This document shows positions 650 through 64,000 of a stretch of 64,000 bases of DNA, piece after piece (the stretch's first letter is position 1; each line of letters starts with the position of its first letter). Made by a program: the position numbers and the translations under genes. The DNA lies in IMG/VR virus record IMGVR_UViG_3300029543_000174, positions 50,821 to 114,820 of that record; one strand, given 5' to 3'. The DNA is from a virus. Taxonomy: Duplodnaviria > Heunggongvirae > Uroviricota > Caudoviricetes. The notes below the pieces were generated by a model. That model worked only from the letters and a program-made list of their open reading frames with translations. It was not told the DNA's origin and did no database searches.

Positions 650-665
650 TTAGGAGGAAAAAGTA

Positions 666-2847: not shown

Positions 2848-2899
2848 AAAAGAAATTATTAAGCAGTAGGAACAATCCTGCTGCAAACGGAGGTTTACT

Positions 2900-48769: not shown

Positions 48770-48824
48770 TTAAGTACAAATACAGCATCCCCGGATACGC
48801 TGATTAAACATTATCCGGGAATGT

Positions 48825-48911: not shown

Positions 48912-48921
48912 AATAAGATAT

Positions 48922-49007
48922 GCTGATGTGATGGAATGGCAGACAGAAGAGACTTAAAATCTCTTGGTGGAAACATCGTGTGAGTTCGACTCTCACCATC
49001 AGCACCA
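48922..49007 (+). tRNA. tRNA-Leu (UAA), type II with long variable arm, CCA encoded
   Basis: Acceptor GCTGATG/CATCAGC. Anticodon stem AGAGA/TCTCT with loop CTTAAAA. T arm GTGAG-TTCGACT-CTCAC. Confidence 0.7.
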
Positions 49008-49355
49008 CTGCAGGGCCCAAGTGAAAGGTCTAAGAAGTTTCACAACGGTATAAGATATTTCTTGGCTGGTTTTTGCCGTGTGCTGGAATGCACTGAATCA
49101 ATAACCTTACAGACAGTATCAAAAAAGTTAGGACTTTTTGTATTGGAAGGGTTGCTGACCTTTCCGTAGTTTTTCTAATGATTTAAAGGAAGTTAAGCAA
49201 AAGTGTACATATTACTTTACTGAATTTAATCACCGTATTAACACGCTGATAGACAGTATTTCTCCCACAATTCGGGAAGTAAAGAGATCTATTGGTTGAA
49301 AGTAAATGGATACGGCAGAACAGTGCACATCTGCCGTATCACGATTATTAAATAC

Positions 49356-49430
49356 GCAGATATGATGTAATCGGTAGCATACAACTCTTCCACAGTTGGT
49401 GTGCGAGTTCAAACCTCGTTATCTGCTCCA
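49356..49430 (+). tRNA. tRNA-Gly (UCC), CCA encoded
   Basis: Acceptor GCAGATA/TATCTGC. Anticodon stem CAACT/AGTTG with loop CTTCCAC. T arm GCGAG-TTCAAAC-CTCGT. Confidence 0.75.
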
Positions 49431-49436
49431 AAATAT

Positions 49437-49512
49437 TCTCCATTAGTTCAGAAGGTAGAACGGTAGACTGTTAATCTATATGTCATTGGTTCAAATCCAA
49501 TATGGAGAGCCA
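49437..49512 (+). tRNA. tRNA-Asn (GUU), CCA encoded
   Basis: Acceptor TCTCCAT/ATGGAGA. D arm GTTC-AGAAGGTA-GAAC. Anticodon loop CTGTTAA. T arm ATTGG-TTCAAAT-CCAAT. Confidence 0.8.
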
Positions 49513-49515
49513 AAC

Positions 49516-49591
49516 GGACCGTTAGCTTAGTAGGTAAAGCAACCGGCTCATAACCGGTAAACCATGGGTTCAAATCCTATACGGTCCACCA
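49516..49591 (+). tRNA. tRNA-Met (CAU) (elongator-type; Ile2/lysidine alternative not excluded)
   Basis: Acceptor GGACCGT/ACGGTCC with 1-72 paired. D arm GCTT-AGTAGGTA-AAGC. Anticodon stem ACCGG/CCGGT with loop CTCATAA. Confidence 0.8.
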
Positions 49592-49594
49592 TAT

Positions 49595-49670
49595 GTGTCA
49601 TTAGCTCAGTAGGTAGAGCAACAGACTTTTAATTTGCAGGTCAAGGGTTCAATTCCCTTATGACACACCA
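49595..49670 (+). tRNA. tRNA-Lys (UUU), CCA encoded
   Basis: Acceptor GTGTCAT/ATGACAC. D arm GCTC-AGTAGGTA-GAGC. Anticodon loop CTTTTAA, with one A-C mismatch in the anticodon stem. T arm AAGGG-TTCAATT-CCCTT. Confidence 0.7.
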
Positions 49671-51240: not shown

Positions 51241-52191
51241 ATGAGTTTAGCTAAGAAAGTATTATCGGTTGGTATTGCTTCTATTATGGCAATGTCAGCT
51301 ATTGGAGTTGGCACTACTGCACTTGCCGAACCAATTAATTCTGTTCAGTCGGCTACTTCAATTTCACTAAATGAGAGTAAAACTGTAACCTTGAAATATG
51401 GTGATATTGGTAATTATGATGACATCTCGGAAGATACTGTTTACTATAAGTTTACTGCTCCGACCACTAATTATTATGAATTTACCTTAACAGGTTACAA
51501 GACAAGAATTGATAATAATGACCCAAGTGCTTATATTGATATAACAGATGAATATGGCGTCAATGCATCGTCAAGTGGGGGCTTATTTAATCCGTATTTT
51601 AATGATGTAAAATCAATTGCCTATTTGGAACAAGGAAAGTCATATATAATCAATGTCTTTTACTCACCAATTGGTACTCAAGAGTACAATTCAAAGGACT
51701 ATGCCGAAACAGCAATTACACTAACTGTTTCTCCACATACACATGACATTACAAGTGTCGTTAATGACGGATATACAGACTACACCTGCAAGCGTTGCAA
51801 TTATTCATATACCGAATTTAAACCGTTACCGACATCTCCTTCACAGCCTACACAGGCTCCTACAAGCACTGTTACTCCAATAACAGCAAGTAAGGTATCA
51901 AAGCCAAAAAAGACTAAAATTAAAAAGGTAAAGGCTGCTAAGAAGGCATTGGCAGTTACTTGGAATAAAGTATCCGGCGTAAAAGGTTATCAAGTACAGG
52001 CTGCAACAGACAAAAAGTTCAAAAAGAACAAGAAAACTGTTACAATCAAGAAGCAAAAAACTACTAAGACAACCGTAAAGAAACTTAAAGCTAAGAAAAA
52101 GTATTACGTAAGAGTAAGAACTTACAAGACCATAAATGGAAAAAAGGTTTACTCGGCTTGGTCAAGTGTAAAAAATGTAAAAACTAAATAG
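51241..52191 (+). CDS. secreted protein with shared Lys-rich Fn3-like C-terminal module
   Basis: Signal peptide. The C-terminal ~100 aa are nearly identical to the C-terminus of the 60296 protein. Confidence 0.5.
   Translation: MSLAKKVLSVGIASIMAMSAIGVGTTALAEPINSVQSATSISLNESKTVTLKYGDIGNYDDISEDTVYYKFTAPTTNYYEFTLTGYKTRIDNNDPSAYIDITDEYGVNASSSGGLFNPYFNDVKSIAYLEQGKSYIINVFYSPIGTQEYNSKDYAETAITLTVSPHTHDITSVVNDGYTDYTCKRCNYSYTEFKPLPTSPSQPTQAPTSTVTPITASKVSKPKKTKIKKVKAAKKALAVTWNKVSGVKGYQVQAATDKKFKKNKKTVTIKKQKTTKTTVKKLKAKKKYYVRVRTYKTINGKKVYSAWSSVKNVKTK
51848..52140 (+). repeat. about 290 bp nearly identical to 63724..64000 (shared C-terminal module of two surface-protein genes)
   Basis: Direct comparison of the nucleotide strings gives about 93% identity. 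Confidence 0.7.
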
Positions 52192-52269
52192 ACTTTTTTG
52201 TAAATCTAAAAAGCACCATAGAATTTTGATTTTCTATGGTGCTTTTTTATTTTTCTAAAAATAAAAAAC

Positions 52270-52932: not shown

Positions 52933-53100
52933 ATGAAAACTATTTTCGAGGAATACGGTACAGTAATCATCGTTGCAATTGCTATCGTTGCTCTTATTGC
53001 TATCGTAACATTTATCCTTGGCGATGACCAGATTAAGGGCAAGTTCAAGGATCTTGTAACAAGCTTCTTCAATCAGGTTAAGTTTGACGCAGCAGCTTAA
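52933..53100 (+). CDS. Flp-like pilin candidate (55 aa)
   Basis: AAAGGAGAA RBS. MKTIFEEYGTVIIVAIAIVALIAIV has an EY-G motif followed by a hydrophobic helix, as in Flp prepilins (ref. IEYGLIAALIAV). Confidence 0.4.
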   Translation: MKTIFEEYGTVIIVAIAIVALIAIVTFILGDDQIKGKFKDLVTSFFNQVKFDAAA

Positions 53101-53212
53101 TTAAATTGATTTGAAAAGGTTTTAAGTCTTGAACAGACACGTGCCACACCTTGTTTCTTGATGGACGAGGTGTGGCTTTTTCTTTGAAAATGATTTTTGT
53201 GGGTGAATTTAT

Positions 53213-54508
53213 ATGGGAATTTTTAGTAAGAAAAATAATGATTTAGAGAATATAGAAAATACAGAAATCGTTACTCTGATAGAAGAAAAGAAAGAGAAAA
53301 CGGAATCTCAGATTATAAATGAGATGCAAAAGGATTATTTATCTAAAAGAGAAAATCTTGGCGATTGGGATTTAGAGCCTAAAGATTTCGGACCGGTATG
53401 GAGTTATGTTGCAGATGAAAATGTCACAGATATTAACTTGAATATGGACGGTCACGATTTGTGGATTACTGATTTAAACAAGGGTAAATATCGAGTTGAA
53501 CCGGAAACATTTAAACAAAAATGTGATGAATGGTTAGAAACACAGGATGCACTTGAATTTGGAAATACAGAGCAGCAGGATTCAAACAGTTTATTTGTAA
53601 AGCAATTCGTACACAGAGTTGGTAATAAGCAAAGTAGGCAATTTAATAAACAAAAACCGTTACTTGAAGCAGAAACAGGAAATCTTCGTATATCGTGCGT
53701 TCATTCATCTGCGGCAGTATCTGGTATATCAATATGTATAAGAAAAACACCACCTGTAATGAGAATTACACCTAAAAAAGCGTTAGAGCAAAAATATTTT
53801 ACAGAAGATATTTTGTGTTTGCTAACCAATTGCGTTAAGGCAAAAATGAATTTTGTCTTTTGCGGTGAACCGGGTGTAGGTAAAACAGAATGTGCAAAAT
53901 TCTTTTCCCAATTTATTAATGCTGAGGATAGAGTTATTACAATCGAAGATAACCCTGAATTACACTACAGAGAAATTAATCCCGGCAAGGATTGTGTTGA
54001 ATTGAAAGTATTTGAGCCTATGTTTACATACAGTACAGCTATTAAGGCTTGCCTTCGTCAAAACCCTCAATGGATTATGCTTTCTGAGGCACGTTCAACA
54101 GAAGTTAAATATCTTCTTGAATGTTGGTCAACCGGTGTATCAGGTTTTACTACACTTCATACTGATGATGTAAGAAAAATTCCGGACCGTATCCAAAACA
54201 TGATGGGAGATAGCAGAGATGCCGAAAGACTTGAAAATGATATTTTTTCTTTCGTAAATATTGGAATACTACTTCGTAAAAAGAAGGATGAAAACGGCAA
54301 TACATATCGTTATATTGATCAAGTTTGCTTTTTTGATAGAAGTAATGGTAAAAACAATATTGTGATGATGGTTGAAAACGGACAAATGATTAACAACAAT
54401 GGAGAAAAACCAAAAATTCCTGACTATATTTTAAAGCGGTTAAGCTTTGTGGATATAACTGATCCTTATTCGGGATTAAACGAAATTTTGAAGGGAGAAA
54501 AAGATTAA
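53213..54508 (+). CDS. CpaF/TadA (VirB11-family) secretion ATPase
   Basis: Walker A CGEPGVGKTE, RQNPQWIMLSEAR (ref. RxxPDxIxvGEiR), and a His box TLHTDD. Confidence 0.7.
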   Translation: MGIFSKKNNDLENIENTEIVTLIEEKKEKTESQIINEMQKDYLSKRENLGDWDLEPKDFGPVWSYVADENVTDINLNMDGHDLWITDLNKGKYRVEPETFKQKCDEWLETQDALEFGNTEQQDSNSLFVKQFVHRVGNKQSRQFNKQKPLLEAETGNLRISCVHSSAAVSGISICIRKTPPVMRITPKKALEQKYFTEDILCLLTNCVKAKMNFVFCGEPGVGKTECAKFFSQFINAEDRVITIEDNPELHYREINPGKDCVELKVFEPMFTYSTAIKACLRQNPQWIMLSEARSTEVKYLLECWSTGVSGFTTLHTDDVRKIPDRIQNMMGDSRDAERLENDIFSFVNIGILLRKKKDENGNTYRYIDQVCFFDRSNGKNNIVMMVENGQMINNNGEKPKIPDYILKRLSFVDITDPYSGLNEILKGEKD

Positions 54509-56364
54509 TGGATAAACGTGAAAAAATCGAAAAGAAAAAGGAACGTCTTGAAACTAAAATCAAAGATTGTGATGACCAAATTGCAGAAATCGAAAAAGCA
54601 AAAGCTTTAAAAGCAAAAATCGAAAAGATGAAACAAGAGGAACGTCTTGAAAAAGCCGAACAGAAAAAATTAAAGCAACTGCAAAGAGAATATGCAAGAG
54701 AGCAGGATAAAATCCGTAAGAAGAACGAACAAATTGCTCAAAAGAATAAAGTTGTTGAAAAACGTGAAGCTGAAAAAGAAACAAAGGCTAAAAAAGATTT
54801 CAACAAAAGAGAAAAGTATCTTAAATACGGTGTTGATCCTAATATAAAAACATTACCAAAAAAGAAAAAAGTAAATGTTTTTAAAATGCTTGATTACAAT
54901 CAATTGCAGATGGAAGTAAATAAATACGGATATCATTATTCGTTTAAGAAAATTCTTATGCATTACCTTATTGCAGTTATTCTTGCTGTTGCAGTCGGTA
55001 TGGTGTTTAAACTCAAATTCTATCTTATCGGAGTTATTGTCCTTGCCGCAATTATCTTTACGCCGTCAATAATTCTTACTTCTGTAAAAGGAATGTATGA
55101 AGGTAAACGATTTTATGACGTAGCAAATTATATTGAAACTCTCTTATATTCTTTCAGACGTAAGGAAAAAATCCTTGATGCACTTGAAGATACATATACG
55201 TCATATAAAAAAGACAAAGGCAAAATGGGTGACTGTATTGCAAAGGCAATAAATCATATTAAATTTTCCAACTCTGTCGGTGATGTTTCAAAAGAAGCTT
55301 TATCAATCATTGAGGATGAATATGAACATAATGAAAGAATGGTTAATGTTCACAACTTCCTTATTGCTGTTGAAAATAATGGTGGTGATGTTCGTAGACC
55401 GGTTGATTTACTTCTTAAAGAAAGAAATATGTGGGATGAAAGAAACCATTCGTTCCAGAAAGAAAAGACAACTGTAAGAAGAAATATTGCTATTTCAATT
55501 ATATGCTCAGTTGGACTTTGTGTATTCCTTCTTTATATCCTCGGAACAGGACAAATGGCTGAACTTGATATTATTCACAATAATCTTGTTCAAATTACAT
55601 CAACCGTTGCAATTATTGCAAGTATGGCTATGTATGTAATGGCTATAAACAAATTATCTCAGAGCTGGTTGGCTAAAAATACTAAATACAGTGATTATCA
55701 GGTATTAAGAAACTACTTTAATGCAAAAGATTTTGACTTCGTTTCTGAAATGAAATCAAGCTTATTGTTTTCCGTAATTGGTGTATTACTAATTGTCCTT
55801 GGTATTTCAAGAGGAATTAAAGTTACGATTATTCTCGGTGCTGCACTGACAATTTTCTTTATTTGTGCACCTCTTATTGCTCATTCAACAGCAAAGAAAG
55901 TAACAAACAAAGAAATTACAAAAGCGTTCCCTGAATGGCTTATGAACGTTGCACTTCTTATGCAACAAGATAATGTTCAGGTGGCTATTGCTAAGAGTGT
56001 TAATACTGCACCTGCAGTATTAAGACCTGATCTTACAAAACTTGTTAAAGATTTCTACAAAGAGCCTAACAGTATTAAGCCATACCAAAACTTTTTATCG
56101 GATTTTGACTTTCCTGAAATTCAGGGTGCTATGTGTATGCTTTATTCAATAACCGAAACAGGTGACGATGCCGGTGGAGAGCAAATTAACGACCTTATTG
56201 ATAAACAAAATATTCTTATGGATAAGGCAGAAAGAACGGCAAATGAAGATACCATAGCAAGCTATTCGGCATATCAAATGATGCCTATGCTTATATGTAT
56301 ATTCAAAGCTCTCCTTGATATGACAGTCCTTGTAATGGGATTGATGTCATATATGAATAATTAA
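54508..56364 (+). CDS. large polytopic membrane protein, putative TadB/TadC-like platform (618 aa)
   Basis: ATGG-coupled to the ATPase gene. Lys/Glu-rich coiled-coil N-terminus followed by multiple TM segments. Confidence 0.45.
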   Translation: MDKREKIEKKKERLETKIKDCDDQIAEIEKAKALKAKIEKMKQEERLEKAEQKKLKQLQREYAREQDKIRKKNEQIAQKNKVVEKREAEKETKAKKDFNKREKYLKYGVDPNIKTLPKKKKVNVFKMLDYNQLQMEVNKYGYHYSFKKILMHYLIAVILAVAVGMVFKLKFYLIGVIVLAAIIFTPSIILTSVKGMYEGKRFYDVANYIETLLYSFRRKEKILDALEDTYTSYKKDKGKMGDCIAKAINHIKFSNSVGDVSKEALSIIEDEYEHNERMVNVHNFLIAVENNGGDVRRPVDLLLKERNMWDERNHSFQKEKTTVRRNIAISIICSVGLCVFLLYILGTGQMAELDIIHNNLVQITSTVAIIASMAMYVMAINKLSQSWLAKNTKYSDYQVLRNYFNAKDFDFVSEMKSSLLFSVIGVLLIVLGISRGIKVTIILGAALTIFFICAPLIAHSTAKKVTNKEITKAFPEWLMNVALLMQQDNVQVAIAKSVNTAPAVLRPDLTKLVKDFYKEPNSIKPYQNFLSDFDFPEIQGAMCMLYSITETGDDAGGEQINDLIDKQNILMDKAERTANEDTIASYSAYQMMPMLICIFKALLDMTVLVMGLMSYMNN

Positions 56365-56380
56365 TGTGAGGTAAACAACT

Positions 56381-56698
56381 ATGAGTAGTGTTATCAAATC
56401 TTATACTTCAATCATTTTTATCATTATTGCTTTTGTTGTGTCAATTGGTGTTATTTCAATGAGTGTTGATATTCAAAACGCAAGAAATTTTTATAGCACT
56501 GCTGTTACCGAAATCGAAAACAGTGATGCTAACGACAAAGTTATTGAAGCGTTACAAAATGATGCCAAGAAAAATAAGTACAAACTCACAGTCACTAAAA
56601 CAACCGGCGGTACAGCTAAAGTTGTTCTTGAATACAAATATTCCTTCAGATTTTTAAATATATCAAATAATCAAAAAATTGAAGGATATGCCCGATAA
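56381..56698 (+). CDS. pseudopilin/TadE-like small membrane protein
   Basis: N-terminal TM, 105 aa, sited in the pilus locus. Confidence 0.35.
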   Translation: MSSVIKSYTSIIFIIIAFVVSIGVISMSVDIQNARNFYSTAVTEIENSDANDKVIEALQNDAKKNKYKLTVTKTTGGTAKVVLEYKYSFRFLNISNNQKIEGYAR

Positions 56699-56710
56699 GG
56701 AGGTAAAGCA

Positions 56711-56809
56711 ATGCGTTTAATTATTGAAGAATATGGACTTGCTGTTGTTTTTACTATCTTTATCGGGGGATTAATCGGCTTGCTTTTTAAATTAGTGACT
56801 CAATTGTAG
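56711..56809 (+). CDS. Flp-like pilin candidate (32 aa)
   Basis: AAGGAGG RBS. Sequence MRLIIEEYGLAVVFTIFIGGLIGLLFKLVTQL. Confidence 0.35.
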   Translation: MRLIIEEYGLAVVFTIFIGGLIGLLFKLVTQL

Positions 56810-56821
56810 GGGGGATTGTTT

Positions 56822-56965
56822 TTGAAAGATATATTTGAAGAATACGGAGATTTCATATTACAGATTATCGGAGGTTTTGCCGTATTGGGAATTGTATTCT
56901 CACTTTTTTCAAAAAACGGTTTGCTCAACGAAGCACTTGCCTCAGTCTTTAATTCTGTTACATAA
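56822..56965 (+). CDS. Flp-like pilin candidate (47 aa, TTG start)
   Basis: KDIFEEYGDFILQIIGGFAVLGIVFSLF. Confidence 0.35.
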   Translation: MKDIFEEYGDFILQIIGGFAVLGIVFSLFSKNGLLNEALASVFNSVT

Positions 56966-56978
56966 GGAGTGATTTGCT

Positions 56979-57182
56979 TTGAAAATAATTTTTAGTGAAT
57001 CCGGTAAAACAATTATTGCTATTTTGGTAGCACTAATAATGATTGGTACATTTGCTATGGGCGGTTTCTTTGCCGACTTGCTATCTGATTATGGTAATAA
57101 AAATAATAATGTATCATATTCAGATAGTGATAAAGCTTTTGCCGATTATATTCCGGATGAAAGTACAACATCAAATACTTAA
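56979..57182 (+). CDS. small TM protein
   Basis: TTG start with an AAGGAGTG RBS. N-terminal TM. Confidence 0.35.
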   Translation: MKIIFSESGKTIIAILVALIMIGTFAMGGFFADLLSDYGNKNNNVSYSDSDKAFADYIPDESTTSNT

Positions 57183-57198
57183 TAGGGGGTAACTTAAA

Positions 57199-57846
57199 TT
57201 GAAAAACGCAATTATTTCGGTTGGACTTGTTATTATAATGATATTATCCTTATGTGGTATTCTCAGTGTTGTTACAAACATAACAAGGACTAATGAATTG
57301 GAAGAAAATATTAATACAGCAACATATCAAACTATGGATAAATTCTTTATGGATACAACGGTTGAATCAAATCAAGAAAATGAAAATAGATTTGTATCTG
57401 AATTTACGGCAAATTTAATGAATTTAATTGATAGCGATTCTGAAATCAATGTAAAAGTCGTTAAAATTGACCTCTCTAACGGCGTATTTCGTGTAAACGC
57501 TACAGAAAAATACAAAGGTATGTTTAAAATAAAAAAGTCAATTAAAGCTGACAGAACAATGATTTTGGACTTTGGTTCAAGTGATGTATATAAAAAGAAT
57601 AATATTACTGTTACGTTCTATTGGGATAAGGATAAAGTCGTGAAAAAAATAAGAGCAACGGCAGGGGATAGCGTTTCGGCACCAAATGAATACATTTATG
57701 TAGATAATGCCAATTATCCGATTCCTAATGGCTTTCATGATTTTAAAGGTTGGACCAAAAATAAAGAAACAAATGAACTTGTTGAATTTGAAGACGGAAA
57801 AGAAAGAGTAACCGAAGATACGGTTTACTATGCTGTATTTGAGTAA
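57199..57846 (+). CDS. N-terminally anchored protein, pilus-associated?
   Basis: TTG start. N-terminal TM. Confidence 0.4.
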   Translation: MKNAIISVGLVIIMILSLCGILSVVTNITRTNELEENINTATYQTMDKFFMDTTVESNQENENRFVSEFTANLMNLIDSDSEINVKVVKIDLSNGVFRVNATEKYKGMFKIKKSIKADRTMILDFGSSDVYKKNNITVTFYWDKDKVVKKIRATAGDSVSAPNEYIYVDNANYPIPNGFHDFKGWTKNKETNELVEFEDGKERVTEDTVYYAVFE

Positions 57847-57997
57847 GAGCAAGGAGATGTCAAGATGGCATCTCCTTTTTTGACAAATAAATTGTATGAT
57901 TACAATTATAATGTTGATAGACAAATATACAACAATTGTCGAATAATGTAGAAAAAACGTAAAAAATATTGTATTTTGGAAAGGTTTATGGTAAATT

Positions 57998-58834
57998 ATG
58001 GATGTAAAGGTATATATATTTACACACGATGATAGCAAAAACAGGAGAATTAAATTGAATAACCCAATAGCAAAAATTAATAATGATTTATTGAAAGATA
58101 ATAAAAATGACGATTTTGAGAAGTTATACAAGCAATTATTTAATATCTTTGACAGCACTAATTTAACTGTTGATGAATTATGTGCTCTGCTTAATGAACG
58201 CCAAAATAGAGCATCACAAAAAAGCAATAATATTGACGAATCAAAATATTATGTAAAGAAAACAAGTGATATTGACAAGGTATCATTATATGCCAACTAT
58301 GTTGTGGATTTATTTTCATATTTTAAAGATAAGAATGGCATAACTTTTAATTGTCCGGAAATTAAAATTCATAAGATGATTTTGATTTTACAAATTGCTC
58401 AAGCTTATAATTACATAGATTTTTTCAATCTGAATTATCAAATCGAAATATGTCCTTGCGGATTTAAAATTCCTAATTTAGCTATACATACAGAAAAATT
58501 TGTTAATAATGACTGTTCTGATAAAGAAGTTGATTTTACCTTTGAGGAAAAATATTTATATATAGAAAATTCAGGATGTTTCAATAACAGCCTAATAACA
58601 AATGAAAACAAAAAGAAACTATTTGTATTGTTTAAAAACTTTGCTAATTCTAATCCGCTTGTGTTAGGACAATTCCTTGATACGATTAAAACAGATACAA
58701 TGAAAGAGGAAATAGGTAAGAAAATATCTTCAAAAGATTTTGAAAAATTAGCTACCGATGGAAAAGAAAAAGTGAAAAATTTTAATGGCTTAAATGTATT
58801 TTCATTCTTTAAGGAATTGGAATCAACAAAGTAA
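57998..58834 (+). CDS. hypothetical protein
   Basis: ORF. Confidence 0.4.
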   Translation: MDVKVYIFTHDDSKNRRIKLNNPIAKINNDLLKDNKNDDFEKLYKQLFNIFDSTNLTVDELCALLNERQNRASQKSNNIDESKYYVKKTSDIDKVSLYANYVVDLFSYFKDKNGITFNCPEIKIHKMILILQIAQAYNYIDFFNLNYQIEICPCGFKIPNLAIHTEKFVNNDCSDKEVDFTFEEKYLYIENSGCFNNSLITNENKKKLFVLFKNFANSNPLVLGQFLDTIKTDTMKEEIGKKISSKDFEKLATDGKEKVKNFNGLNVFSFFKELESTK

Positions 58835-58854
58835 CTAAAATTGGAAAAGAACTT

Positions 58855-60159
58855 ATGAGTAGGATTGATAATAAATATTTACAAAGTTTTATAGATATAA
58901 TCAGTGAAGAAAACAGAGTCTTTTCGGTTTTAAATGACAATGATAAAACATTTTGTAAACGACTTTTTGAAAATTATAGTGAAGTACAGAAAATATCAAG
59001 TGGTGAAGATATTTTTTCTTTTCATTACATATATCTATTAGATGAATTAATAATAAACAAACTAAAATGTAACAATTCACTTTGCATAGATGAATTTGAA
59101 TGCAAATTGTCTGTTGATTATTACAAGTTGCTAAAAGATTATTCAAATACACTTGCTGAAAATAATATAAAAGAGCCAGATAAACCTGCGAATCCTTCAA
59201 ATGATACACAGCCTTCAAACCAGACTGGTACAACAAAACCAAGTGAATATTCAGATATTTCAATGACAGAAGAAACTTTTGACTTGGATAATATTCCTTG
59301 GGTATTGGAAACATTAAAATACATTGACATAAAGTGTGAAATGCTTTCTCATGCAAGTTCTTTAACAAATGTATATACCGATGATGCTGTATCTCAAAAT
59401 TTAAAAAACTTAAATGAAGTAAATAAAAAAATCACTGATGTTAATGGCTATATTGATGAAATTGCCAATAATTCTGCTCAAAAGATCACTGAAATTGAAA
59501 AACAATACAATACTCTCGATAATCAAATTAAATTACAGAAAAAATCGTACAAAAAACAAAATGAAAAGTTAAAGCATCAAGAACAAAAAGCAACAGAAAA
59601 TTATATTACTATTTTAGGTATATTTGTTGCAATTGTAACAGTTTTAATTGCTGGTGTGTCATTCACCGGACTTGTTACTAAAGAATTGCTAATGGCAAAC
59701 CCAATAAAATCCTTAATGTTTATTGGAATGATTAGTATTATTTTATATGATGCTTTGCTATCTTTATTTTACTATTTATCAAAATTAACAGGCAAACCGA
59801 TACATAATACAGATTATTGCAATTTTTGCTGTTCAAAAAACAGTTTAAAAAAATTGATTTGTCCGATCGCTCATAATTATAAATTTGCTTTTTGGTCAAA
59901 TGTGATTCTTGGTTTATTTATGTTGTTTTTATTTAATCTTTATTTATTAACCAATAACCATATAAATATAGGCTTTACTTCAAATGGAATTTCGTTTATG
60001 AATGTTTTTATTTCAATGTCAATTCCTGTGTTAATCATAATTTTGTTACTTATTTTTACAAGACCTTGCCAAGAACATATTGATGAATTAAATTCTTCAA
60101 AACAATCAAGTAAAATTCATGTTAAAAAAAGTGAAAAGTCAAATAAAAATGAACAATAG
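58855..60159 (+). CDS. coiled-coil protein with C-terminal TM segments
   Basis: ORF. Central heptad-like region (NLKNLNEVNKKITDVNGYIDEIANNSAQKITEIEKQYNTLDNQIKLQKK) and four C-terminal TM segments. Confidence 0.45.
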   Translation: MSRIDNKYLQSFIDIISEENRVFSVLNDNDKTFCKRLFENYSEVQKISSGEDIFSFHYIYLLDELIINKLKCNNSLCIDEFECKLSVDYYKLLKDYSNTLAENNIKEPDKPANPSNDTQPSNQTGTTKPSEYSDISMTEETFDLDNIPWVLETLKYIDIKCEMLSHASSLTNVYTDDAVSQNLKNLNEVNKKITDVNGYIDEIANNSAQKITEIEKQYNTLDNQIKLQKKSYKKQNEKLKHQEQKATENYITILGIFVAIVTVLIAGVSFTGLVTKELLMANPIKSLMFIGMISIILYDALLSLFYYLSKLTGKPIHNTDYCNFCCSKNSLKKLICPIAHNYKFAFWSNVILGLFMLFLFNLYLLTNNHINIGFTSNGISFMNVFISMSIPVLIIILLLIFTRPCQEHIDELNSSKQSSKIHVKKSEKSNKNEQ

Positions 60160-60167
60160 ACCTTAAA

Positions 60168-60195
60168 CAGCAGCAGGAATTCTGCTGCTTTTTCT
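60168..60195 (+). terminator. rho-independent terminator ACAGCAGCAGG-AATT-CTGCTGCTTTTTC
   Basis: Hairpin followed by a T-run. Confidence 0.65.
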
Positions 60196-60295
60196 TTCTT
60201 TTTTAATTGTAAAACATATGCGAACTTATCCATATCGACATTGACACTATGTACTCCGTGCGGTATAATTTAAGTATAGAAAGGAACGAAAAATT

Positions 60296-63200
60296 ATGAA
60301 GAAAACGTTGAGTTTTTTACTTGCTTTTGCATTGATATTTTCAACTGTAATTGTACCTGTATCTGCTTTTGCTGATACGGATTTTTCAAATTATTCTAAA
60401 TATGTTTATGATTCAAATTCTGATCCTATTGACTACAATAAAGTAGCAGTATTCAAAGATTATGACGAATTGGAAAAATACATTCAATCTCTTAATTTAA
60501 AATTGGAAAATAAGCCTGAATTAATTGATGGATTAGTGTGCTATATTACGTCCGGATATGGTGGATATGGTTCAGATCAAGATTATGATAAACCTTTAGT
60601 AATATCTTTAGGCTATGGTCCGACAAATACTTTCGATGATGGCATTTATGATCAGGCTCTTGCAGGACCGTATTCTGTTAAATTATATCCTATTAAATCA
60701 AATTACATGAGCGATTGTCTTTTTCAAGTTCGTGTTGATAATGGCATTTACACAACCGAACAAATCAATGAATATTATAAAACAATAAAAAGAGCTTTTG
60801 ACGAAATGGACCTTTATGATAAGTCTGATTATGCAAAGGCTACTTCTATTGTTTCTTGGATTGGTAATAATATTAGTTATAACGATGATAATTATCAAAA
60901 TGTTGCAACGGCTATGCTTATCAATAAAGACGGTATCTGTTCTGGATTTTCAAGTTTAGTTAATTATTTTTGTAATATAGTAGGAATTGAAAGTTATGAA
61001 ATGGGTAGTATAGCTCATTCATGGAATGTGTTAAAAATCAACGGTAAATATTATTTCACAGATTGTTCTAATATTATTACTGCAAGGCTTATGTCAGCTA
61101 AAGATTTTGGACGTGTAGATGAAAAGACTTGGGTTGGCGGACAATCAAATGATTATTATATTGAAATGATCAACACAGCTCCATATGTCAAATTGCATAT
61201 CGTAGATGAGGAAACATGGAATGATCCGGGTTGGAAGTCTTTAAAGCAGTTTGTTCTTGACTTTATGGATAATCTTACGTTAGTTGGTATTGATACTATA
61301 GGTCTTGTTGGAGACACTCGTTATCACACACATTCCTCTCCGTATACAATTAGTAAAACTAAAATAAAAAAATCAAATTCATCTTCAAATAATTTAATTT
61401 CTGATGATAATTGCAATCTTAAATATGAAAACATTGACGAGAAATTTACTCAAACCAGTAAATGTAGTGTCAATGGCTATATGACAGGCTATTTTACCGA
61501 TAGAACAGCATATTATACTGACAATGATGTTATAACAGAAAATGCACGTCCTATTAAAGATTGTATCCTTAACGGTAATACCGGCGATAAAGCAGTTAAA
61601 CTTACCACAAAGGAAACTCAGGTTGACCAGTTTGATAACCCAACTGATAAAACTGTTAATTTCACGGAAAACCGTGTAATTGAAACCGGTAAAGTTATAA
61701 AGAACAACAAGACTTCTCATAATTATTACAAGAGGACAATCAAAAATTATACTTGTGATAAAGATACCGTAATTGAATTTGTATGTAAGGATTGTGGTGA
61801 AAGATTTTGTCTTGTAAAATATTGTGATAATCATCAGTTTAAAACTTATGTTGACGTTACACCAAATACATGTACTTCTGACGGCAAAATTAACATTTAT
61901 GATGGAAACGCAACGGATTATGATTTTAAGTCGAAGTCTTTTAAAGGTGTTTCATTGAACAAGCTTAATCATAATATTAAGACTGAGGTTGTTGATAATG
62001 GTACATTAGAAAGAACTTATTGTGATAATACTTCTAATGAAATCACATTAACAACCGATGATATTAAAAATAATCTTATGAATTGCTTGTATTCCAGCGA
62101 TTATGACGGTGTAGACGATTTAAAGTGGAATAAAACTCAAGACCGTAGATTTTGGGAATTTAATTGTGATAATCAAAATGGTCAAACACCGACTATTACA
62201 ATGAAACTCCTCGCTAAAGGTATCAGTGACGGTGTAAGCAATTATGGCACATCTCTTTACTTCACAATTAAAGATGATAAAACGAATGAAGTAAAGACAT
62301 ATAATTTCTGTTATAACGACAAAACGAAAGTAGCAACTCTTACCAATGTAAATGATAAGACTGATGTATTACCGGCTGAAGCAAAAATTGATGGTGTAAC
62401 CATTACTCTCAGTGTTAAGGCTAATTCGGTATATAAGAGATATGGTTATAGTTACTCTTATCTTAACGGAAGATTTTACGAAATAAGAACCAATGGCGCA
62501 TTTTCGGATATGTTTGGTACAAACTGTTATATCAAATTTACATACGATAATTGTAATTATGAAACTACTAAAGAGTTAGATCATTTTTATCAGGAAAGTA
62601 ACAGAACACCTGCTTCTTGTACCAAAGAGGGTACAGTAGAGTATACTTGTAAGCACTGTGGTGCTAAGAAATATGATACTTTACCATTAGCAGAACATAC
62701 TGCTATAATTCAAAATAAAAAGGATTCTACGTGTGCTGAGGAAGGCTATACAGGTGATACTGTTTGTAGTGTATGTGGTAAAACACTCAAAAAGGGAACA
62801 GCAGTTCCTAAAAAGGACCACACGTATAAGATTACAACCGTAAGTGCTAATTGTACTTCTCAGGGTTATGATGAATACACTTGTATTTATTGTGGCTATT
62901 CGTATAAAACAAATTATGTAGAACCTAACGGTAAGCACGTTCCTAAATATGGTGTAAACAAAAAGGAAGCAACTTGTACCGAAAAGGGCTACACCGGTGA
63001 TACGGTTTGTACTGTTTGTAACAAAGTGATTGAAAAGGGTAGTGAAACAAATCCTAAAAATCACAGCTATGTTCTTACAACTGTATCTGCAACGTGTGTA
63101 TCTGAGGGATACGACCTTTATACTTGCTCAAATTGTGGTGATTCATATAAAACAAATATTGTTGCACCAAATAACAAACACACAGTTGTAGTTGACAAGG

Positions 63201-64000
63201 CAGTTCCTGCTACTTGTACTACTGATGGATACACTGCCGGTACCCATTGTTCGGTATGTAATAAAGTTATTTCTGCTCAAAAGGTTATTAAGGCTACAGG
63301 ACATAAGCCTACCAAAATTGCTGCTGTACCTGCTACTTGTTCTTCTACCGGACTAACGGAGGGTTCAGTATGCTCTGTATGTAAAACAGTATTGGTAGAA
63401 CAAAAGGTTGTTCCTGCACTTGACCATAAATGGGATAACGGTACTGTTACCGTTGAACCGACTTGTACAAAGGAAGGTAAAAAGGTTTATCATTGTGTTA
63501 ATTGCAATGAAACTATGATTGAATCAATCGGTAAAACAAATCATTCGTTTGGTAATAATCTTCCTAATTGTTCAGTATGTGGCGCTGCTAATCCAAATTA
63601 TGTAGCGCCAACAAAGCCAACTGAACATACTACAAAGCCTGCTGCTCCTTCACAGCCGCCACAGGCACCGATTCAGCCGAGTGTAATACCAAATGCTCCT
63701 GCTACAACAACACCTGTTCCTGTGCCTACACAGGCTCCTACAAGAGCTGTAGTAAAGGTATCAAAGCCTAAAAAGACTAAAATCAAAAAGGTAAAGGCTG
63801 CTAAGAAAGCATTAGCAGTTACTTGGAACAAAGTATCCGGCGTAAAAGGTTATCAAGTACAGGTTGCAACGGATAAAAAGTTCAAAAAGAACAAGAAAAC
63901 TGTTACAATCAAGAAACAGAAAACAACTAAGACAACCGTAAAGAAGCTTAAAGCTAAGAAAAAGTATTACGTAAGAGTAAGAACTTACAAAACTGTAAAG
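60296..64000 (+). CDS. giant secreted protein: transglutaminase-like cysteine-protease core, at least 8 Cys-rich ~32-aa repeats (ATC..GYTGDTVC.VC.K), Pro-rich linker, shared Fn3-like tail; 3' end beyond window
   Basis: Frame 2 is open from 60296 to the window end; I translated it and found no stop. Signal peptide MKKTLSFLLAFALIFSTVIVPVSAFA. GICSGFS...HSWNV...TDCS forms a Cys/His/Asp triad. Confidence 0.6.
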   Translation, partial: MKKTLSFLLAFALIFSTVIVPVSAFADTDFSNYSKYVYDSNSDPIDYNKVAVFKDYDELEKYIQSLNLKLENKPELIDGLVCYITSGYGGYGSDQDYDKPLVISLGYGPTNTFDDGIYDQALAGPYSVKLYPIKSNYMSDCLFQVRVDNGIYTTEQINEYYKTIKRAFDEMDLYDKSDYAKATSIVSWIGNNISYNDDNYQNVATAMLINKDGICSGFSSLVNYFCNIVGIESYEMGSIAHSWNVLKINGKYYFTDCSNIITARLMSAKDFGRVDEKTWVGGQSNDYYIEMINTAPYVKLHIVDEETWNDPGWKSLKQFVLDFMDNLTLVGIDTIGLVGDTRYHTHSSPYTISKTKIKKSNSSSNNLISDDNCNLKYENIDEKFTQTSKCSVNGYMTGYFTDRTAYYTDNDVITENARPIKDCILNGNTGDKAVKLTTKETQVDQFDNPTDKTVNFTENRVIETGKVIKNNKTSHNYYKRTIKNYTCDKDTVIEFVCKDCGERFCLVKYCDNHQFKTYVDVTPNTCTSDGKINIYDGNATDYDFKSKSFKGVSLNKLNHNIKTEVVDNGTLERTYCDNTSNEITLTTDDIKNNLMNCLYSSDYDGVDDLKWNKTQDRRFWEFNCDNQNGQTPTITMKLLAKGISDGVSNYGTSLYFTIKDDKTNEVKTYNFCYNDKTKVATLTNVNDKTDVLPAEAKIDGVTITLSVKANSVYKRYGYSYSYLNGRFYEIRTNGAFSDMFGTNCYIKFTYDNCNYETTKELDHFYQESNRTPASCTKEGTVEYTCKHCGAKKYDTLPLAEHTAIIQNKKDSTCAEEGYTGDTVCSVCGKTLKKGTAVPKKDHTYKITTVSANCTSQGYDEYTCIYCGYSYKTNYVEPNGKHVPKYGVNKKEATCTEKGYTGDTVCTVCNKVIEKGSETNPKNHSYVLTTVSATCVSEGYDLYTCSNCGDSYKTNIVAPNNKHTVVVDKAVPATCTTDGYTAGTHCSVCNKVISAQKVIKATGHKPTKIAAVPATCSSTGLTEGSVCSVCKTVLVEQKVVPALDHKWDNGTVTVEPTCTKEGKKVYHCVNCNETMIESIGKTNHSFGNNLPNCSVCGAANPNYVAPTKPTEHTTKPAAPSQPPQAPIQPSVIPNAPATTTPVPVPTQAPTRAVVKVSKPKKTKIKKVKAAKKALAVTWNKVSGVKGYQVQVATDKKFKKNKKTVTIKKQKTTKTTVKKLKAKKKYYVRVRTYKTVK

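What the first reader, a model, noticed from the sequence alone, without database searches (positions are those of the whole stretch)
52933..57846. Tad/Flp-like pilus module (CpaF ATPase, large platform protein, three EEYG Flp-like peptides) on a phage-like element
A VirB11/CpaF-type ATPase (53213-54508) is translationally coupled to a 618-aa polytopic membrane protein. Around these are three very small genes whose products all begin with I-(F/I)-EEYG followed by a hydrophobic helix. This matches the Flp prepilin signature EY-G-hydrophobic, but the usual Gly cleavage site before the motif is missing. Several small N-terminally anchored proteins are also present and could be pseudopilins. Tad pili on phage or plasmid elements of Firmicutes are unusual. 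The module could mediate adhesion or DNA uptake, or act as a lysogenic-conversion trait. No TadV prepilin peptidase and no TadZ are seen in the window.
Basis: partly seen in the sequence, partly recalled or inferred. Interest (0 to 1): 0.7.

Follow-up and report, generated by a model that had tools for sequence, protein, structure and literature searches.

The report
Leaderless Flp-like pilus operon on mobile element
A compact operon on a large mobile element from gut Clostridia encodes a pilus-type motor, a fused membrane platform and tiny pilin-like proteins that begin where normal pilins begin only after cleavage, so the machine may need no pilin-cutting enzyme.

Summary
At 52933-57846 lie a T2SSE-family ATPase, an overlapping 618-aa membrane protein and four (not three) tiny genes whose products start M-[KR]-x-I-[FI]-[ES]-E-[YS]-G followed by a hydrophobic helix. 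A 105-aa protein has a variant of this start in the same register, and a 215-aa anchored protein follows.

The membrane protein matches no Pfam or PDB sequence. A high-confidence model (pLDDT 94) has GspF/PilC-like cytoplasmic domains. Its two halves are homologous to pLS20-family proteins p38 and p39, which follow the "VirB11" ATPase in Bacillus and Listeria conjugation operons.

The same operon, with the same leaderless N-termini, sits in Lachnospiraceae contigs among housekeeping genes. The platform family has 940 clusters at 50% identity.

No Gly cleavage site, prepilin peptidase or TadZ was found, and the Pfam Flp model is not met. I read this as a Tad-like type IV filament variant, not a canonical Tad locus.

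The 192-kb host contig is filed as viral, but the ORFs searched across the 129 kb I walked gave no virion genes. It carries a VirD4-type coupling protein and a thioester adhesin. "Phage-like" is therefore doubtful.

The parts
52208..52247 (+). Intrinsic terminator after the preceding fn3 surface-protein gene. It marks the upstream boundary of the module.
   Evidence: 16-bp stem followed by a T-run.
52933..53100 (+). Candidate major subunit. This 55-aa leaderless Flp-like protein reads MKTIFEEYG, then a roughly 20-aa hydrophobic helix, then an amphipathic tail.
   Evidence: Orthologues of 54-69 aa sit in the same position, upstream of the ATPase, in L007, L008, L011, L013, L050 and L051. Flp_Fap gives only E 0.068.
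53143..53176 (+). Strong hairpin terminator or attenuator between the subunit gene and the machinery genes.
   Evidence: 14-bp stem with 7 GC pairs, then TTTTTCTTT.
53213..54508 (+). Hexameric secretion-type ATPase of the T2SSE / PilT-VirB11-CpaF superfamily, 431 aa. The Walker A motif is GEPGVGKT.
   Evidence: Pfam T2SSE 3e-18. NCBIfam best matches are VirB11 at 91.8 bits, TrbB at 73 and TadA-conj at 64, all far below their cut-offs. In the PDB it is equidistant from archaeal GspE, VirB11 and CpaF. It is 26.5-29.8% identical to pLS20-type p37, E 6e-36.
54508..54864 (+). Lys/Glu-rich N-terminal extension of the platform protein, predicted as one long helix. It is absent from most of the roughly 500-aa relatives, including those in the Lachnospiraceae contigs.
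54922..55674 (+). First half of the platform (residues 139-389): TM-TM, a cytoplasmic helical bundle, then TM-TM. It is homologous to pLS20-family p38.
55675..56364 (+). Second half of the platform (residues 390-618): TM-TM, a cytoplasmic helical bundle, then TM. It is homologous to pLS20-family p39.
   Evidence: hhalign against p39 homologues: probability 95.9%, E 5e-9 over 192 columns. The two halves align to each other with E 8.9e-5 over 189 columns.
56381..56698 (+). 105-aa N-anchored protein whose start, M-S-S-V-I-K-S-Y, is in register with MKxIFEEYG but has K6 instead of E6. The C-terminus G-Y-A-R is conserved. I propose it as a tip or priming subunit.
   Evidence: alignment of six orthologues. 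Weak DUF4320 hit, E 0.037. Weak end-to-end alignment to pLS20-type p40, E 0.005.
56711..56809 (+). 32-aa leaderless pilin-like peptide (MRLIIEEYG...), minor class B.
   Evidence: Orthologues of 33-37 aa are present in L007, L008, L011, L013, L050 and L051.
56822..56965 (+). 47-aa leaderless pilin-like peptide (MKDIFEEYGDFILQIIGG...), minor class C. The start is revised from 56816.
   Evidence: ribosome-binding-site spacing. Orthologues of 47-48 aa read MK[LAE]IFEEYGD.ILQI.GG.
56979..57182 (+). 67-aa pilin-like protein (MKIIFSESG...) with a short polar C-terminal tail. In relatives this position carries C-terminal domains that bring the protein to 147-203 aa.
   Evidence: L008 12059-12670 has the same N-terminus followed by 'ISSYMFYECVKLSSVTIPESVTSISSAAFSGCTELTTV', which I judge BspA-type LRR-like by eye; no domain search was run on it.
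57199..57846 (+). 215-aa N-anchored protein with a weak Listeria-Bacteroides-repeat-like C-terminus. It is the last conserved small gene of the operon.
   Evidence: Flg_new E 0.016. Orthologues of 197-225 aa are present in L008, L011, L013 and L050.
60296..64000 (+). Large Sec-secreted surface protein of at least 1234 aa, with a transglutaminase-like core, Cys-rich repeats and a C-terminal fn3 domain. It is the possible counterpart of the large Flg_new protein that ends the operon in relatives, but its link to the module is uncertain. It has its own consensus promoter at 60241-60269.
   Evidence: Relatives: L011 1415 aa, L013 614 aa, L050 883 aa, L008 1468 aa.

Best explanation
The module is a compact type IV filament (Tad-like) assembly operon of a previously uncurated kind.

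Shown: it encodes a T2SSE-family ATPase, and the next gene, whose start overlaps the ATPase stop, encodes a single membrane protein. The two halves of that protein each carry a GspF/PilC-like cytoplasmic bundle. It is in effect a fused TadB-TadC or p38-p39 platform.

Shown: around these lie one abundant-type small subunit gene, followed by a terminator hairpin, and three further small subunit genes. All of them encode M-[KR]-x-I-[FI]-[ES]-E-[YS]-G plus a hydrophobic helix at the very N-terminus. There is also a 105-aa variant in the same register with Lys in place of Glu, and a 215-aa anchored protein.

Inferred: the subunits insert with the two-residue Met-Lys end in the cytoplasm and the C-terminus outside. 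The ATPase hexamer turns or pushes the platform, which lifts subunits out of the membrane into a helical fibre. The Glu-Tyr-Gly that sits at +5/+6/+7 of a processed Flp pilin sits here at residues 7-9. The proteins therefore mimic mature Flp with only two extra residues and need no prepilin peptidase. The Glu is probably neutralised by the N-terminal amine or Lys2 of a neighbouring subunit. The minor subunits and the Lys variant would prime or cap the fibre, and the variable C-terminal domains and the neighbouring large surface proteins would supply binding specificity.

Inferred function on this element: cell-to-cell or cell-to-substrate attachment. This could be a colonisation trait, or a way of making contact for transfer, since the same contig carries a VirD4-type coupling protein and a thioester adhesin.
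For: - ATPase: Pfam T2SSE above its cut-off.
- The two halves of the platform are weakly homologous to each other. Each half is specifically homologous to p38 or p39 of pLS20-type plasmids, and the cross comparisons are weak.
- The N-terminal motif is far beyond chance: 3 occurrences against 0 in shuffles.
- The motif is kept in four orthologous size classes across operons whose ATPases are only 48-66% identical.
- No upstream start codon is possible.
- The same N-terminus is attached to extra C-terminal domains in relatives, one of which looks like an extracellular BspA-type LRR by eye. This argues for an N-in, C-out, pilin-like topology.
- The operon has the layout typical of pilus loci: subunit gene, hairpin, then machinery.
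- The same gene order is found in Lachnospiraceae contigs flanked by housekeeping genes. The families are large: 2504 ATPase clusters and 940 platform clusters.
- No Peptidase_A24 was found among the ORFs searched in the window or in the precomputed Pfam annotations of relatives' flanks.
Against: - No filament has been seen, and everything here is computational.
- The small proteins fail the Pfam Flp_Fap model.
- The platform has no T2SSF sequence signal.
- Every characterised type IV filament system uses a prepilin peptidase (established knowledge; e.g. PMC3244431). A peptidase-free version therefore has no precedent.
- By HMM score the ATPase is slightly nearer VirB11 than TadA.
- An unprocessed N-terminal Met-Lys might hinder extraction of the subunit from the membrane.
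Confidence: 0.58

Rival explanations
1. The module is a dedicated conjugation module. The ATPase would be the "VirB11" of a Gram-positive type IV secretion system, and the membrane and small proteins would be its partners. It would work with the element's VirD4-type coupling protein in mating-pair formation or channel assembly, as is assumed for pLS20 genes 36-41, rather than acting as a general adhesion pilus.
For: - The closest plasmid-borne ATPases are all from Bacillus and Listeria plasmids, where the gene lies between a thioester adhesin and CagC/VirB2-like and conjugal-transfer/VirD4-type genes.
- p38 and p39 homology.
- The best NCBIfam model is VirB11.
- The same 192-kb contig has a full-length T4CP (T4SS-DNA_transf 9e-48) next to a 1954-aa thioester/SpaA adhesin.
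- The window holds PcfJ, ArdC-type and other leading-region-type genes.
- One metagenomic variant joins the T4CP in frame to this ATPase.
Against: - The same operon is found among housekeeping genes, with no transfer genes in the flanks shown.
- The T4CP lies about 87 kb away, not in the operon.
- No VirB4, VirB6, VirB8 or relaxase was seen among the ORFs searched in the 129 kb walked.
- The VirB11 score is far below the model cut-off (91.8 against 249.95).
- VirB11 proteins of T4SSs are not known to pair with GspF-fold platforms (established knowledge).
Confidence: 0.2
2. The module builds a short pseudopilus that acts as a piston or scaffold, in the manner of a Com or type II secretion system. 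It would move or display the large adjacent surface proteins, or DNA, through the thick wall, and would not form a long adhesive pilus.
For: - There is one major and several minor subunits, as in Com and T2SS pseudopili.
- In relatives the operon always ends with a large Sec-secreted protein carrying Flg_new-type repeats.
- ComGA is among the ATPase's NCBIfam matches.
- SpoIIIAB, a channel component rather than a pilus component, is one of the best fold matches.
Against: - No competence DNA-channel genes (ComEC or ComEA type) were seen in the flanks.
- The large proteins have ordinary Sec signal peptides and, in this window, a separate promoter.
- The subunits are Flp-sized, not ComGC-like.
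Confidence: 0.12
3. The module is a canonical Tad/Flp pilus whose prepilins are processed by a host-encoded TadV peptidase located elsewhere.
For: - The E-Y-G motif and the Flp-like size of the small proteins.
- TANB77 hosts have a chromosomal Tad-type cluster with a fused TadC-TadB platform (PMC11680825).
Against: - There is no residue to cleave. The proteins begin two residues before the position equivalent to +1, have Lys/Arg rather than Gly at -1, and in-frame stops exclude longer leaders.
- The Flp_Fap and T2SSF models are not met.
- No TadZ, TadV or TadE/F was found among the ORFs searched.
Confidence: 0.04
4. The small ORFs are not filament subunits. They would be small membrane peptides, such as regulators, toxins or bacteriocin-like peptides, and the ATPase and membrane protein would have an unrelated transport role.
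For: - They fail all curated pilin models.
- Some are only 32-35 aa, too short for a globular head.
Against: - They are strictly co-conserved with a T2SSE ATPase and a GspF-fold protein, in fixed order, across distant relatives.
- The identical N-terminus is found on proteins with 100-150-aa C-terminal domains.
- No ABC exporter or immunity-type genes are present in the operon.
Confidence: 0.05

Closest known systems
Tad/Flp (type IVc) pili, e.g. Aggregatibacter, Caulobacter CpaF/CpaG/CpaH/PilA, Bifidobacterium
   Same: Both have a T2SSE-family motor ATPase and two GspF-type platform domains. Both have very small subunits of about 50-60 aa with Glu-Tyr-Gly just before a hydrophobic helix, several minor subunits, and a single ATPase.
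   Different: The subunits here have no leader and no Gly cleavage site. No TadV peptidase, TadZ/CpaE or RcpC/CpaB was found. The platform is one fused polypeptide with no T2SSF sequence signature, and the Pfam Flp_Fap and TadE models are not met.
pLS20-family conjugation operon genes 36-41 (putative VirB11 p37, unknown p38-p41) and their counterparts on Listeria pLGUG1/pLM80-type plasmids (PMC8557374)
   Same: The ATPase is homologous (E 6e-36). The platform halves are homologous and colinear with p38 and p39 (hhalign 94.6% and 95.9%). Both are followed by an N-anchored protein of about 110-120 aa and several proteins of about 50 aa with a single TM helix. A thioester adhesin and a T4CP are on the same replicon.
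   Different: Here p38 and p39 are fused. The small proteins have the MKxIFEEYG start, whereas the Bacillus ones start MSFEMNADRSING-IYSLIIG. The module is not embedded in a T4SS operon; the T4CP is about 87 kb away.
Chromosomal Tad-type cluster conserved in order TANB77 (PMC11680825)
   Same: Same probable host lineage: a relative of this module lies on a Candidatus Fimenecus MAG contig. Both have a fused TadC-TadB-like platform of about 600-700 aa next to a CpaF-like ATPase, followed by N-anchored pilin-like proteins.
   Different: That cluster has CpaB, TadZ and CpaE, a 640-aa ATPase with a TM helix, and pilin-like proteins of 143-621 aa. No sequences were available for direct comparison.
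Com pseudopilus of monoderm bacteria (ComGA/ComGB/ComGC-GG)
   Same: Both are minimal type IV filament machines in a Gram-positive envelope, with one ATPase, one platform protein carrying two GspF repeats, and one major plus four minor subunits.
   Different: Com pilins have class III leaders cut by ComC, and ComGB matches T2SSF. The ATPase here scores only 54 bits against a cut-off of 300 on the ComGA model.
Plasmid-borne tad loci of Gram-positive bacteria, e.g. Cutibacterium acnes Flp-pili plasmids (PMC5696575; title and abstract only, from the listing)
   Same: Both are pilus loci carried on a mobile replicon of a Gram-positive commensal.
   Different: Those are described as canonical Flp/Tad loci.

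Membership tests
Type IV filament superfamily (core machinery) | Hexameric T2SSE-family (PilB/PilT/CpaF/GspE-type) ATPase | tested here: met
   Pfam PF00437 at 66.1 bits against a cut-off of 24.9. PDB matches to archaeal GspE, VirB11, CpaF and FlaI at E 6e-14 to 7e-11.
Type IV filament superfamily (core machinery) | Polytopic platform protein with GspF/PilC-type cytoplasmic domains, tested at fold level | tested here: met
Type IV filament superfamily (core machinery) | Platform protein matches the T2SSF sequence family (PF00482) | tested here: not met
   The query has no Pfam or NCBIfam hit. Of 23 homologues, 22 have no precomputed Pfam domain and one has only PF07291. A 114-sequence profile finds no GspF-family chain in the PDB.
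Type IV filament superfamily (core machinery) | Subunits made as prepilins with a class III signal peptide (charged leader, Gly/Ala at -1) cut by an A24 prepilin peptidase | tested here: not met
   All subunits start M-[KRQE]-x directly before the hydrophobic/EYG segment, and in-frame stops exclude longer leaders. No Peptidase_A24 appears among the ORFs searched in the window or in the precomputed annotations of relatives' flanks.
Tad/Flp (type IVc) pilus | Flp pilin family membership (Pfam Flp_Fap PF04964; G/XXXXEY motif) | tested here: not met
   Best score E 0.068, 13.4 bits against a cut-off of 32.2. Only 3 of 22 family members give even a weak hit. E-Y-G is present, but Gly at -1 is absent.
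Tad/Flp (type IVc) pilus | ATPase belongs to the CpaF/TadA subfamily | tested here: inconclusive
   Bit scores to CpaF (52.6), VirB11 (52.8) and archaeal GspE (55.1) are equal. NCBIfam scores are VirB11 91.8 and TadA-conj 64, all below their cut-offs. No reference phylogeny was built.
Tad/Flp (type IVc) pilus | Accessory genes TadZ/CpaE (ParA-like), TadE/TadF pseudopilins, RcpC/CpaB | tested here: not met
   None appear among the Pfam hits for the module or the ORFs searched in the window. There is only a weak DUF4320 hit (E 0.037) for the 105-aa protein. In L011 a ParA/MinD-like gene lies two genes upstream, with unclear relevance.
VirB/D4 type IV secretion system (VirB11 ATPase) | ATPase meets the VirB11/TrbB equivalog models and sits with VirB4, VirB6 and VirB8 genes | tested here: not met
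   TIGR02788 scores 91.8 against 249.95 and TIGR02782 scores 73.3 against 304.55. No VirB4, VirB6 or VirB8 family was found among the ORFs searched in the 129 kb walked. A T4CP exists about 87 kb away.
pLS20-type 'VirB11 + p38/p39' module of Firmicutes conjugative plasmids | Homologous ATPase followed by p38-like and p39-like membrane proteins in that order | tested here: met
   blastp E 6e-36 and 8e-34. hhalign gives half 1 against p38 at 94.6% and half 2 against p39 at 95.9%, with cross pairs at 16% or less. The gene order in L001 and L002 is the same.
pLS20-type 'VirB11 + p38/p39' module of Firmicutes conjugative plasmids | Embedded in a conjugation operon between the adhesin and the VirD4/VirB4 genes | tested here: not met
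   The module's neighbours in the window are surface-protein genes and tRNAs. The T4CP and thioester adhesin are on the same contig but about 87 kb upstream.
Archaellum / archaeal type IV pili | FlaI/ArlI-type ATPase with a FlaJ platform | tested here: not met
   NF058587 scores 54.4 against a cut-off of 550. The context is bacterial, and there are no archaellin-type subunits.
Bacteriophage (nature of the host element) | Virion genes: capsid, portal, terminase, tail | tested here: inconclusive
   IMG/VR lists the contig as viral, and the window has phage-typical genes (YopX, DUF1064, thymidine kinase, a tRNA array). No capsid, terminase or portal family appeared among the ORFs searched in the 129 of 192 kb walked. 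The only structural-type hits were one PHROG 'virion structural protein' (3e-26, carrying ORF not identified) and a weak scaffold-like hit. About 63 kb of the contig was not seen.

The most novel reading that the evidence does not exclude
Gut Clostridia, and through homologous modules the pLS20/pXO2/Listeria class of Gram-positive conjugative plasmids, may build a type IV-like filament from leaderless subunits without any prepilin peptidase. That would remove one of the four supposedly universal components of the type IV filament superfamily. It would also mean that the "VirB11" of Gram-positive conjugation operons is really the motor of a pilus that mediates mating contact.
Probability: 0.3. 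Interest if true: 0.85.

Novelty: new variant of a known kind. Interest (0 to 1): 0.64.

Why it matters
All characterised type IV filaments, including pili, Tad, Com, T2SS and archaella, need a dedicated peptidase to remove a leader from their subunits. A widespread family that encodes ready-made subunits would show that this step is dispensable, and it would give a minimal system for studying assembly.

The homology to pLS20 genes 37-39 also bears on an open question. Reviews state that Gram-positive conjugation systems lack VirB11 and lack pili (PMC12857230, PMC11730352). If this module builds a fibre, how Gram-positive donors contact recipients becomes directly testable.

The operon is also common in human-gut Lachnospiraceae and on large mobile elements of the TANB77 lineage. 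Pilus proteins of that lineage have been linked to immunotherapy response (PMC11680825).

Tried and rejected
- DNA searches of the module against phage and plasmid collections found nothing.
- PHROGs gave no informative hit for the ATPase, platform or neighbours.
- Foldseek of the first full-length platform model against the PDB returned only coiled-coil noise from the 105-residue N-terminal helix. I therefore remodelled a truncated protein with a deeper alignment.
- Profile searches of the platform (114 sequences) and of the pilin-like alignment against PDB sequences gave no meaningful hit.
- hhalign of the two platform halves using the shallow 23-sequence alignment showed nothing. A signal appeared only with the 90-sequence alignment.
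- The homologue search with the 55-aa protein returned only five hits, four 84-98% identical and one 61% identical, so the subunit family had to be collected by reading loci.
- The 105-aa protein against pLS20 p40 or p36 gave weak or no signal, and I make no claim from it.
- Pfam on the pLS20-type p36 and p38-p41 proteins gave nothing.
- I considered the L004 T4CP-ATPase fusion as evidence for a natural two-domain protein. I rejected that reading because it is a deletion joint at an 8-nt microhomology between genes that lie about 87 kb apart in the intact contig.
- A literature search for leaderless Flp pilins, or for a description of this operon in Lachnospiraceae, found nothing.

Full report
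**1. What is in the sequence**

- A 55-aa ORF at 52933-53100 (MKTIFEEYG...).
- A 431-aa ATPase at 53213-54508.
- A 618-aa polytopic protein at 54508-56364, whose ATG overlaps the ATPase stop by one base.
- Then, each 12-16 nt after the previous gene: a 105-aa protein (56381-56698), a 32-aa peptide (56711-56809, MRLIIEEYG), a 47/49-aa peptide (56816/56822-56965), a 67-aa protein (56979-57182, MKIIFSESG) and a 215-aa N-anchored protein (57199-57846).

The third peptide most likely starts at the TTG at 56822. The Shine-Dalgarno sequence GGGGGA (56810-56815) then has a 6-nt spacer, and the product reads MKDIFEEYG, in register with the others.

So there are four paralogues rather than three. All of them begin M-[KR]-x-I-[FI]-[ES]-E-[YS]-G followed by about 20 hydrophobic residues.

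The back-translated I-[FI]-E-E-Y-G pattern occurs three times in the window and never in 100 shuffles. In-frame stop codons lie one to four codons upstream of each start. A longer leader with a Gly cleavage site cannot be encoded.

Terminator-like hairpins lie upstream of the module (52208-52247), directly after the 55-aa gene (53143-53176, 14-bp stem) and at 60169-60189. A perfect sigma-70 consensus precedes the next large gene.

**2. The ATPase**

It is a T2SSE-family protein (Pfam 3e-18, 66.1 bits, cut-off 24.9). It falls far below every curated subfamily model:
- VirB11 91.8 bits against a cut-off of 250
- TrbB 73
- TadA-type 64
- FlaI 54
- ComGA 54

Against PDB sequences it is equidistant from archaeal GspE, VirB11 and CpaF, at about 52-55 bits each. 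Sequence alone therefore does not decide between "CpaF" and "VirB11".

**3. The 618-aa protein**

It has no Pfam, NCBIfam or PHROG match. A 114-sequence profile finds nothing meaningful among PDB sequences.

The first full-length model was mediocre (pLDDT 77). Its long Lys/Glu-rich N-terminal helix swamped Foldseek.

A profile search of 1.84 billion representatives showed that the family is large. There are 940 clusters at 50% identity and 414 at E below 1e-30, mostly of about 500 aa. With 90 of these sequences, the truncated protein (residues 120-618) modelled at pLDDT 94.2 and pTM 0.85.

The model is a tandem of two similar units, each with TM helices, a cytoplasmic helical bundle and further TM helices.

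- Rank 1: a designed protein.

The two halves align to each other over 189 columns (E 8.9e-5, probability 60%).

I conclude that the protein is a fused two-domain GspF/TadB-TadC-type platform at fold level. The caveat is that helical bundles are common and designed helical bundles score similarly. The afdb50 library, which would have been the cleaner test, was unavailable.

**4. Relatives on Gram-positive conjugative plasmids**

The best plasmid matches of the ATPase are all from Bacillus and Listeria plasmids.

In a Bacillus subtilis plasmid and in Listeria grayi pLGUG1 the ATPase follows a thioester-domain adhesin gene and a small hypothetical gene. After the ATPase come two membrane proteins of about 243-279 aa, an N-anchored protein of about 115-120 aa and several smaller proteins. 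Beyond these lie a CagC/VirB2-like gene and a conjugal-transfer protein gene in the Bacillus plasmid, and a VirD4-type gene in pLGUG1. The Bacillus plasmid carries three annotated proteins of about 50 aa, two of them identical.

This layout corresponds to pLS20 genes 34-41. In the pLS20 paper, p37 is called a putative VirB11 and p36 and p38-p41 are listed as "unknown" (PMC8557374).

hhalign links the first half of the platform specifically to the p38 homologues (94.6%, E 7e-8, 234 columns). It links the second half to the p39 homologues (95.9%, E 5e-9, 192 columns). The crossed comparisons are weak. The ATPases are 26.5-29.8% identical (E 6e-36).

The module here is therefore homologous and colinear with pLS20 genes 37-39. 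Recent reviews state that Gram-positive T4SSs lack VirB11 homologues (PMC12857230). Another paper states that Gram-positive conjugation appears to lack a pilus (PMC11730352).

**5. Relatives in bacterial genomes**

The ATPase family has 2504 clusters at E below 1e-10.

Contigs that carry members at 53-55% identity show the same operon:
- a small subunit gene of 54-63 aa
- an ATPase of 360-414 aa
- a fused platform of 420-512 aa
- a protein of 111-124 aa
- peptides of about 33-35 aa (not always called as genes) and 47-48 aa
- a protein of 147-171 aa
- a protein of 197-225 aa
- a large protein of 614-1415 aa with Listeria-Bacteroides-type repeats

Flanking genes include ClpB, IMPDH, glutamine synthetase, PyrB/PyrI and aminoacyl-tRNA synthetases. 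One such locus is in Lachnospiraceae bacterium C7. The precomputed Pfam annotations of those flanks show no Peptidase_A24.

In every locus the small proteins start at exactly the same register. Examples are MKVIFEEYSG, MKIVIEEFGG, MKEIMEEYAG, MKEIFEQYGG, MRRIIEEYGQ and MQKIFEEYGG. They fall into four orthologous size classes.

In some relatives the same N-terminus carries 100-150 further residues. One of these looks by eye like a BspA-type leucine-rich repeat, which is typical of extracellular proteins. This argues for an N-in, C-out, pilin-like topology.

The 105-aa family starts M-x-x-V-[IM]-K-[SA]-[YF], in the same register with Lys in place of the first Glu, and ends in G-[YF]-A-R.

**6. 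Comparison with Flp**

In processed Flp pilins, Glu-Tyr-Gly sit at +5/+6/+7 (PMC3244431). Here they sit at residues 7-9, so the primary translation product equals a mature Flp N-terminus plus Met-Lys.

Met is expected to be retained before Lys or Arg (established specificity of methionine aminopeptidase).

The proteins nevertheless fail the Pfam Flp_Fap model. The best score is E 0.068, 13.4 bits against a cut-off of 32.2, with weak hits in only 3 of 22.

No TadV, TadZ, TadE/F or RcpC family appears in the module or among the window ORFs I searched.

I therefore do not file this as a Tad locus. It works like one, as a type IV filament machine. But two defining features, the class III leader and the prepilin peptidase, were tested and not met.

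**7. The element**

The exact platform protein lies on two IMG/VR contigs of 192 kb and 169 kb. A 50%-identical copy lies on a 134-kb contig binned to a Candidatus Fimenecus MAG. A 46-48%-identical copy (P0007) lies next to Rep3 and ParA genes on a 225-kb contig.

The window has phage-typical genes: YopX, DUF1064, thymidine kinase, UDG, RNase H, DNA polymerase III beta, a RecG-like helicase and six tRNAs. It also has genes typical of conjugative-element leading regions: an ArdC-type metallopeptidase, LPD11, YodL, DUF2958 and PcfJ. A sortase and several fn3- or LRR-type surface proteins are present too.

A metagenomic variant (L004) joins a VirD4-type coupling protein in frame to residue ~67 of the ATPase. 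Searching with that part showed that the intact coupling-protein gene lies about 87 kb upstream on the same 192-kb contig. It encodes 715 aa with T4SS-DNA_transf at 9e-48, TraG-D_C and TrwB domains. A few genes upstream of it is a 1954-aa thioester/SpaA-repeat adhesin. The L004 joint sits at an 8-nt microhomology.

I walked the contig from 39.6 to 168.7 kb. The ORFs I searched gave no VirB4, relaxase, capsid, portal or terminase family. About 63 kb remains unseen.

The label "phage-like" is therefore not established. The content fits a large plasmid-like or hybrid element at least as well.

**8. Mechanism proposed**

Shown:
- A T2SSE ATPase and a GspF-fold platform whose genes overlap by one base.
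- A family of subunit-like proteins with an invariant register.
- A subunit gene set apart by a hairpin.
- Conservation of the whole set across hundreds of lineages.

Inferred:
- The ATPase hexamer drives the platform to extract the single-helix subunits from the membrane into a helical fibre.
- Because the subunits are synthesised in near-mature form, no peptidase is needed.
- Glu7 is neutralised by the N-terminal amine or Lys2 of a neighbouring subunit.
- The three minor EYG subunits and the Lys variant prime or cap the fibre.
- Variable C-terminal domains and the adjacent large surface proteins confer binding.
- On this element the fibre most plausibly mediates attachment, either to recipient cells (given the coupling protein and thioester adhesin) or to host or substrate surfaces.

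I put about 0.58 on the filament-machine reading. About 0.2 goes to a strictly conjugation-dedicated role, and smaller weights go to a secretion pseudopilus, a canonical Tad pilus with a host peptidase, or non-filament peptides.

**9. Novelty and verdict**

The building blocks are known, but the combination is not curated in Pfam, NCBIfam or PHROGs. That combination is leaderless Flp-like subunits, no peptidase, and a fused platform with no T2SSF sequence signal. I found no description of it in the literature searched.

It is a new variant of a known kind. Its interest lies mainly in the possible independence from a prepilin peptidase and in the link to the unexplained "VirB11" module of Gram-positive conjugative plasmids.

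All functional statements remain computational inferences.

Noticed in passing
L004 2974-5397 (compare window 53413 onward and L028 10001-12148): One metagenomic contig carries an in-frame fusion of the first ~445 residues of the element's VirD4-type coupling protein to residue ~67 onward of the pilus ATPase. In the intact 192-kb contig the two genes are about 87 kb apart. The joint lies at an 8-nt microhomology (GATGAnAA), so it looks like a large deletion variant rather than a designed fusion.
   Followed up: yes
L028 1072-6936 and 10001-12148 (IMGVR_UViG_3300045988_183299, about 50.6-61.7 kb): The same contig as the window encodes a 1954-aa thioester-domain adhesin with 13 SpaA repeats and a full-length T4CP (VirD4/TraG type). 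No VirB4 or relaxase was found among the ORFs searched in the 129 kb walked.
   Followed up: partly
window 51892-52136 and 63755-63999: A direct repeat of 245 nt (94% identical) brackets the pilus module. It encodes the Lys-rich C-terminal fn3 domain shared by the 316-aa protein and the large transglutaminase-like protein. More diverged copies of this fn3 tail end the 932-aa BspA-LRR protein and occur in the 361-aa and 371-aa proteins.
   Followed up: partly
window 57906-60160: A two-gene cassette (278 aa plus a 434-aa membrane protein) is replaced by a different pair (297 aa plus 374 aa) in contigs that are otherwise 93-99% identical on both sides (L003, L004). This is a local variable region just downstream of the pilus operon.
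   Followed up: partly
window 48824-49670: Array of six tRNA genes (Thr, Leu, Gly, Asn, Met, Lys) about 3 kb upstream of the module.
   Followed up: no
window 119-3964 and 21835-23313: Genes typical of anti-restriction or polyvalent proteins and of conjugative leading regions: MPTase-PolyVal (ArdC-like), LPD11, YodL plus DUF2958, and PcfJ. A second similar set, with ArdC-N, appears to lie just upstream of the window in the contig.
   Followed up: partly
window 54508-54864: The platform protein carries a Lys/Glu-rich N-terminal extension of about 119 residues, most of it (about 105 residues) predicted as a single helix. This extension is missing from most of the roughly 500-aa relatives, including those in the Lachnospiraceae contigs, but is present in several longer family members (613-820 aa).
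   Followed up: no
L049 8969-16687: A 2572-aa ORF downstream of the window on the same contig has no Pfam match at all.
   Followed up: no
L001 10267-10419 and 10700-10852: The Bacillus subtilis pLS20-type plasmid carries two identical copies of a 50-aa single-TM protein (MSFEMNADRSINGIYSLIIG...) downstream of p40. This is a possible subunit with a short leader ending in Gly, unlike the leaderless clostridial proteins.
   Followed up: no
L008 8016-8195 and 8275-8466: In the Candidatus Fimenecus MAG contig the putative major subunit gene is tandemly duplicated.
   Followed up: no
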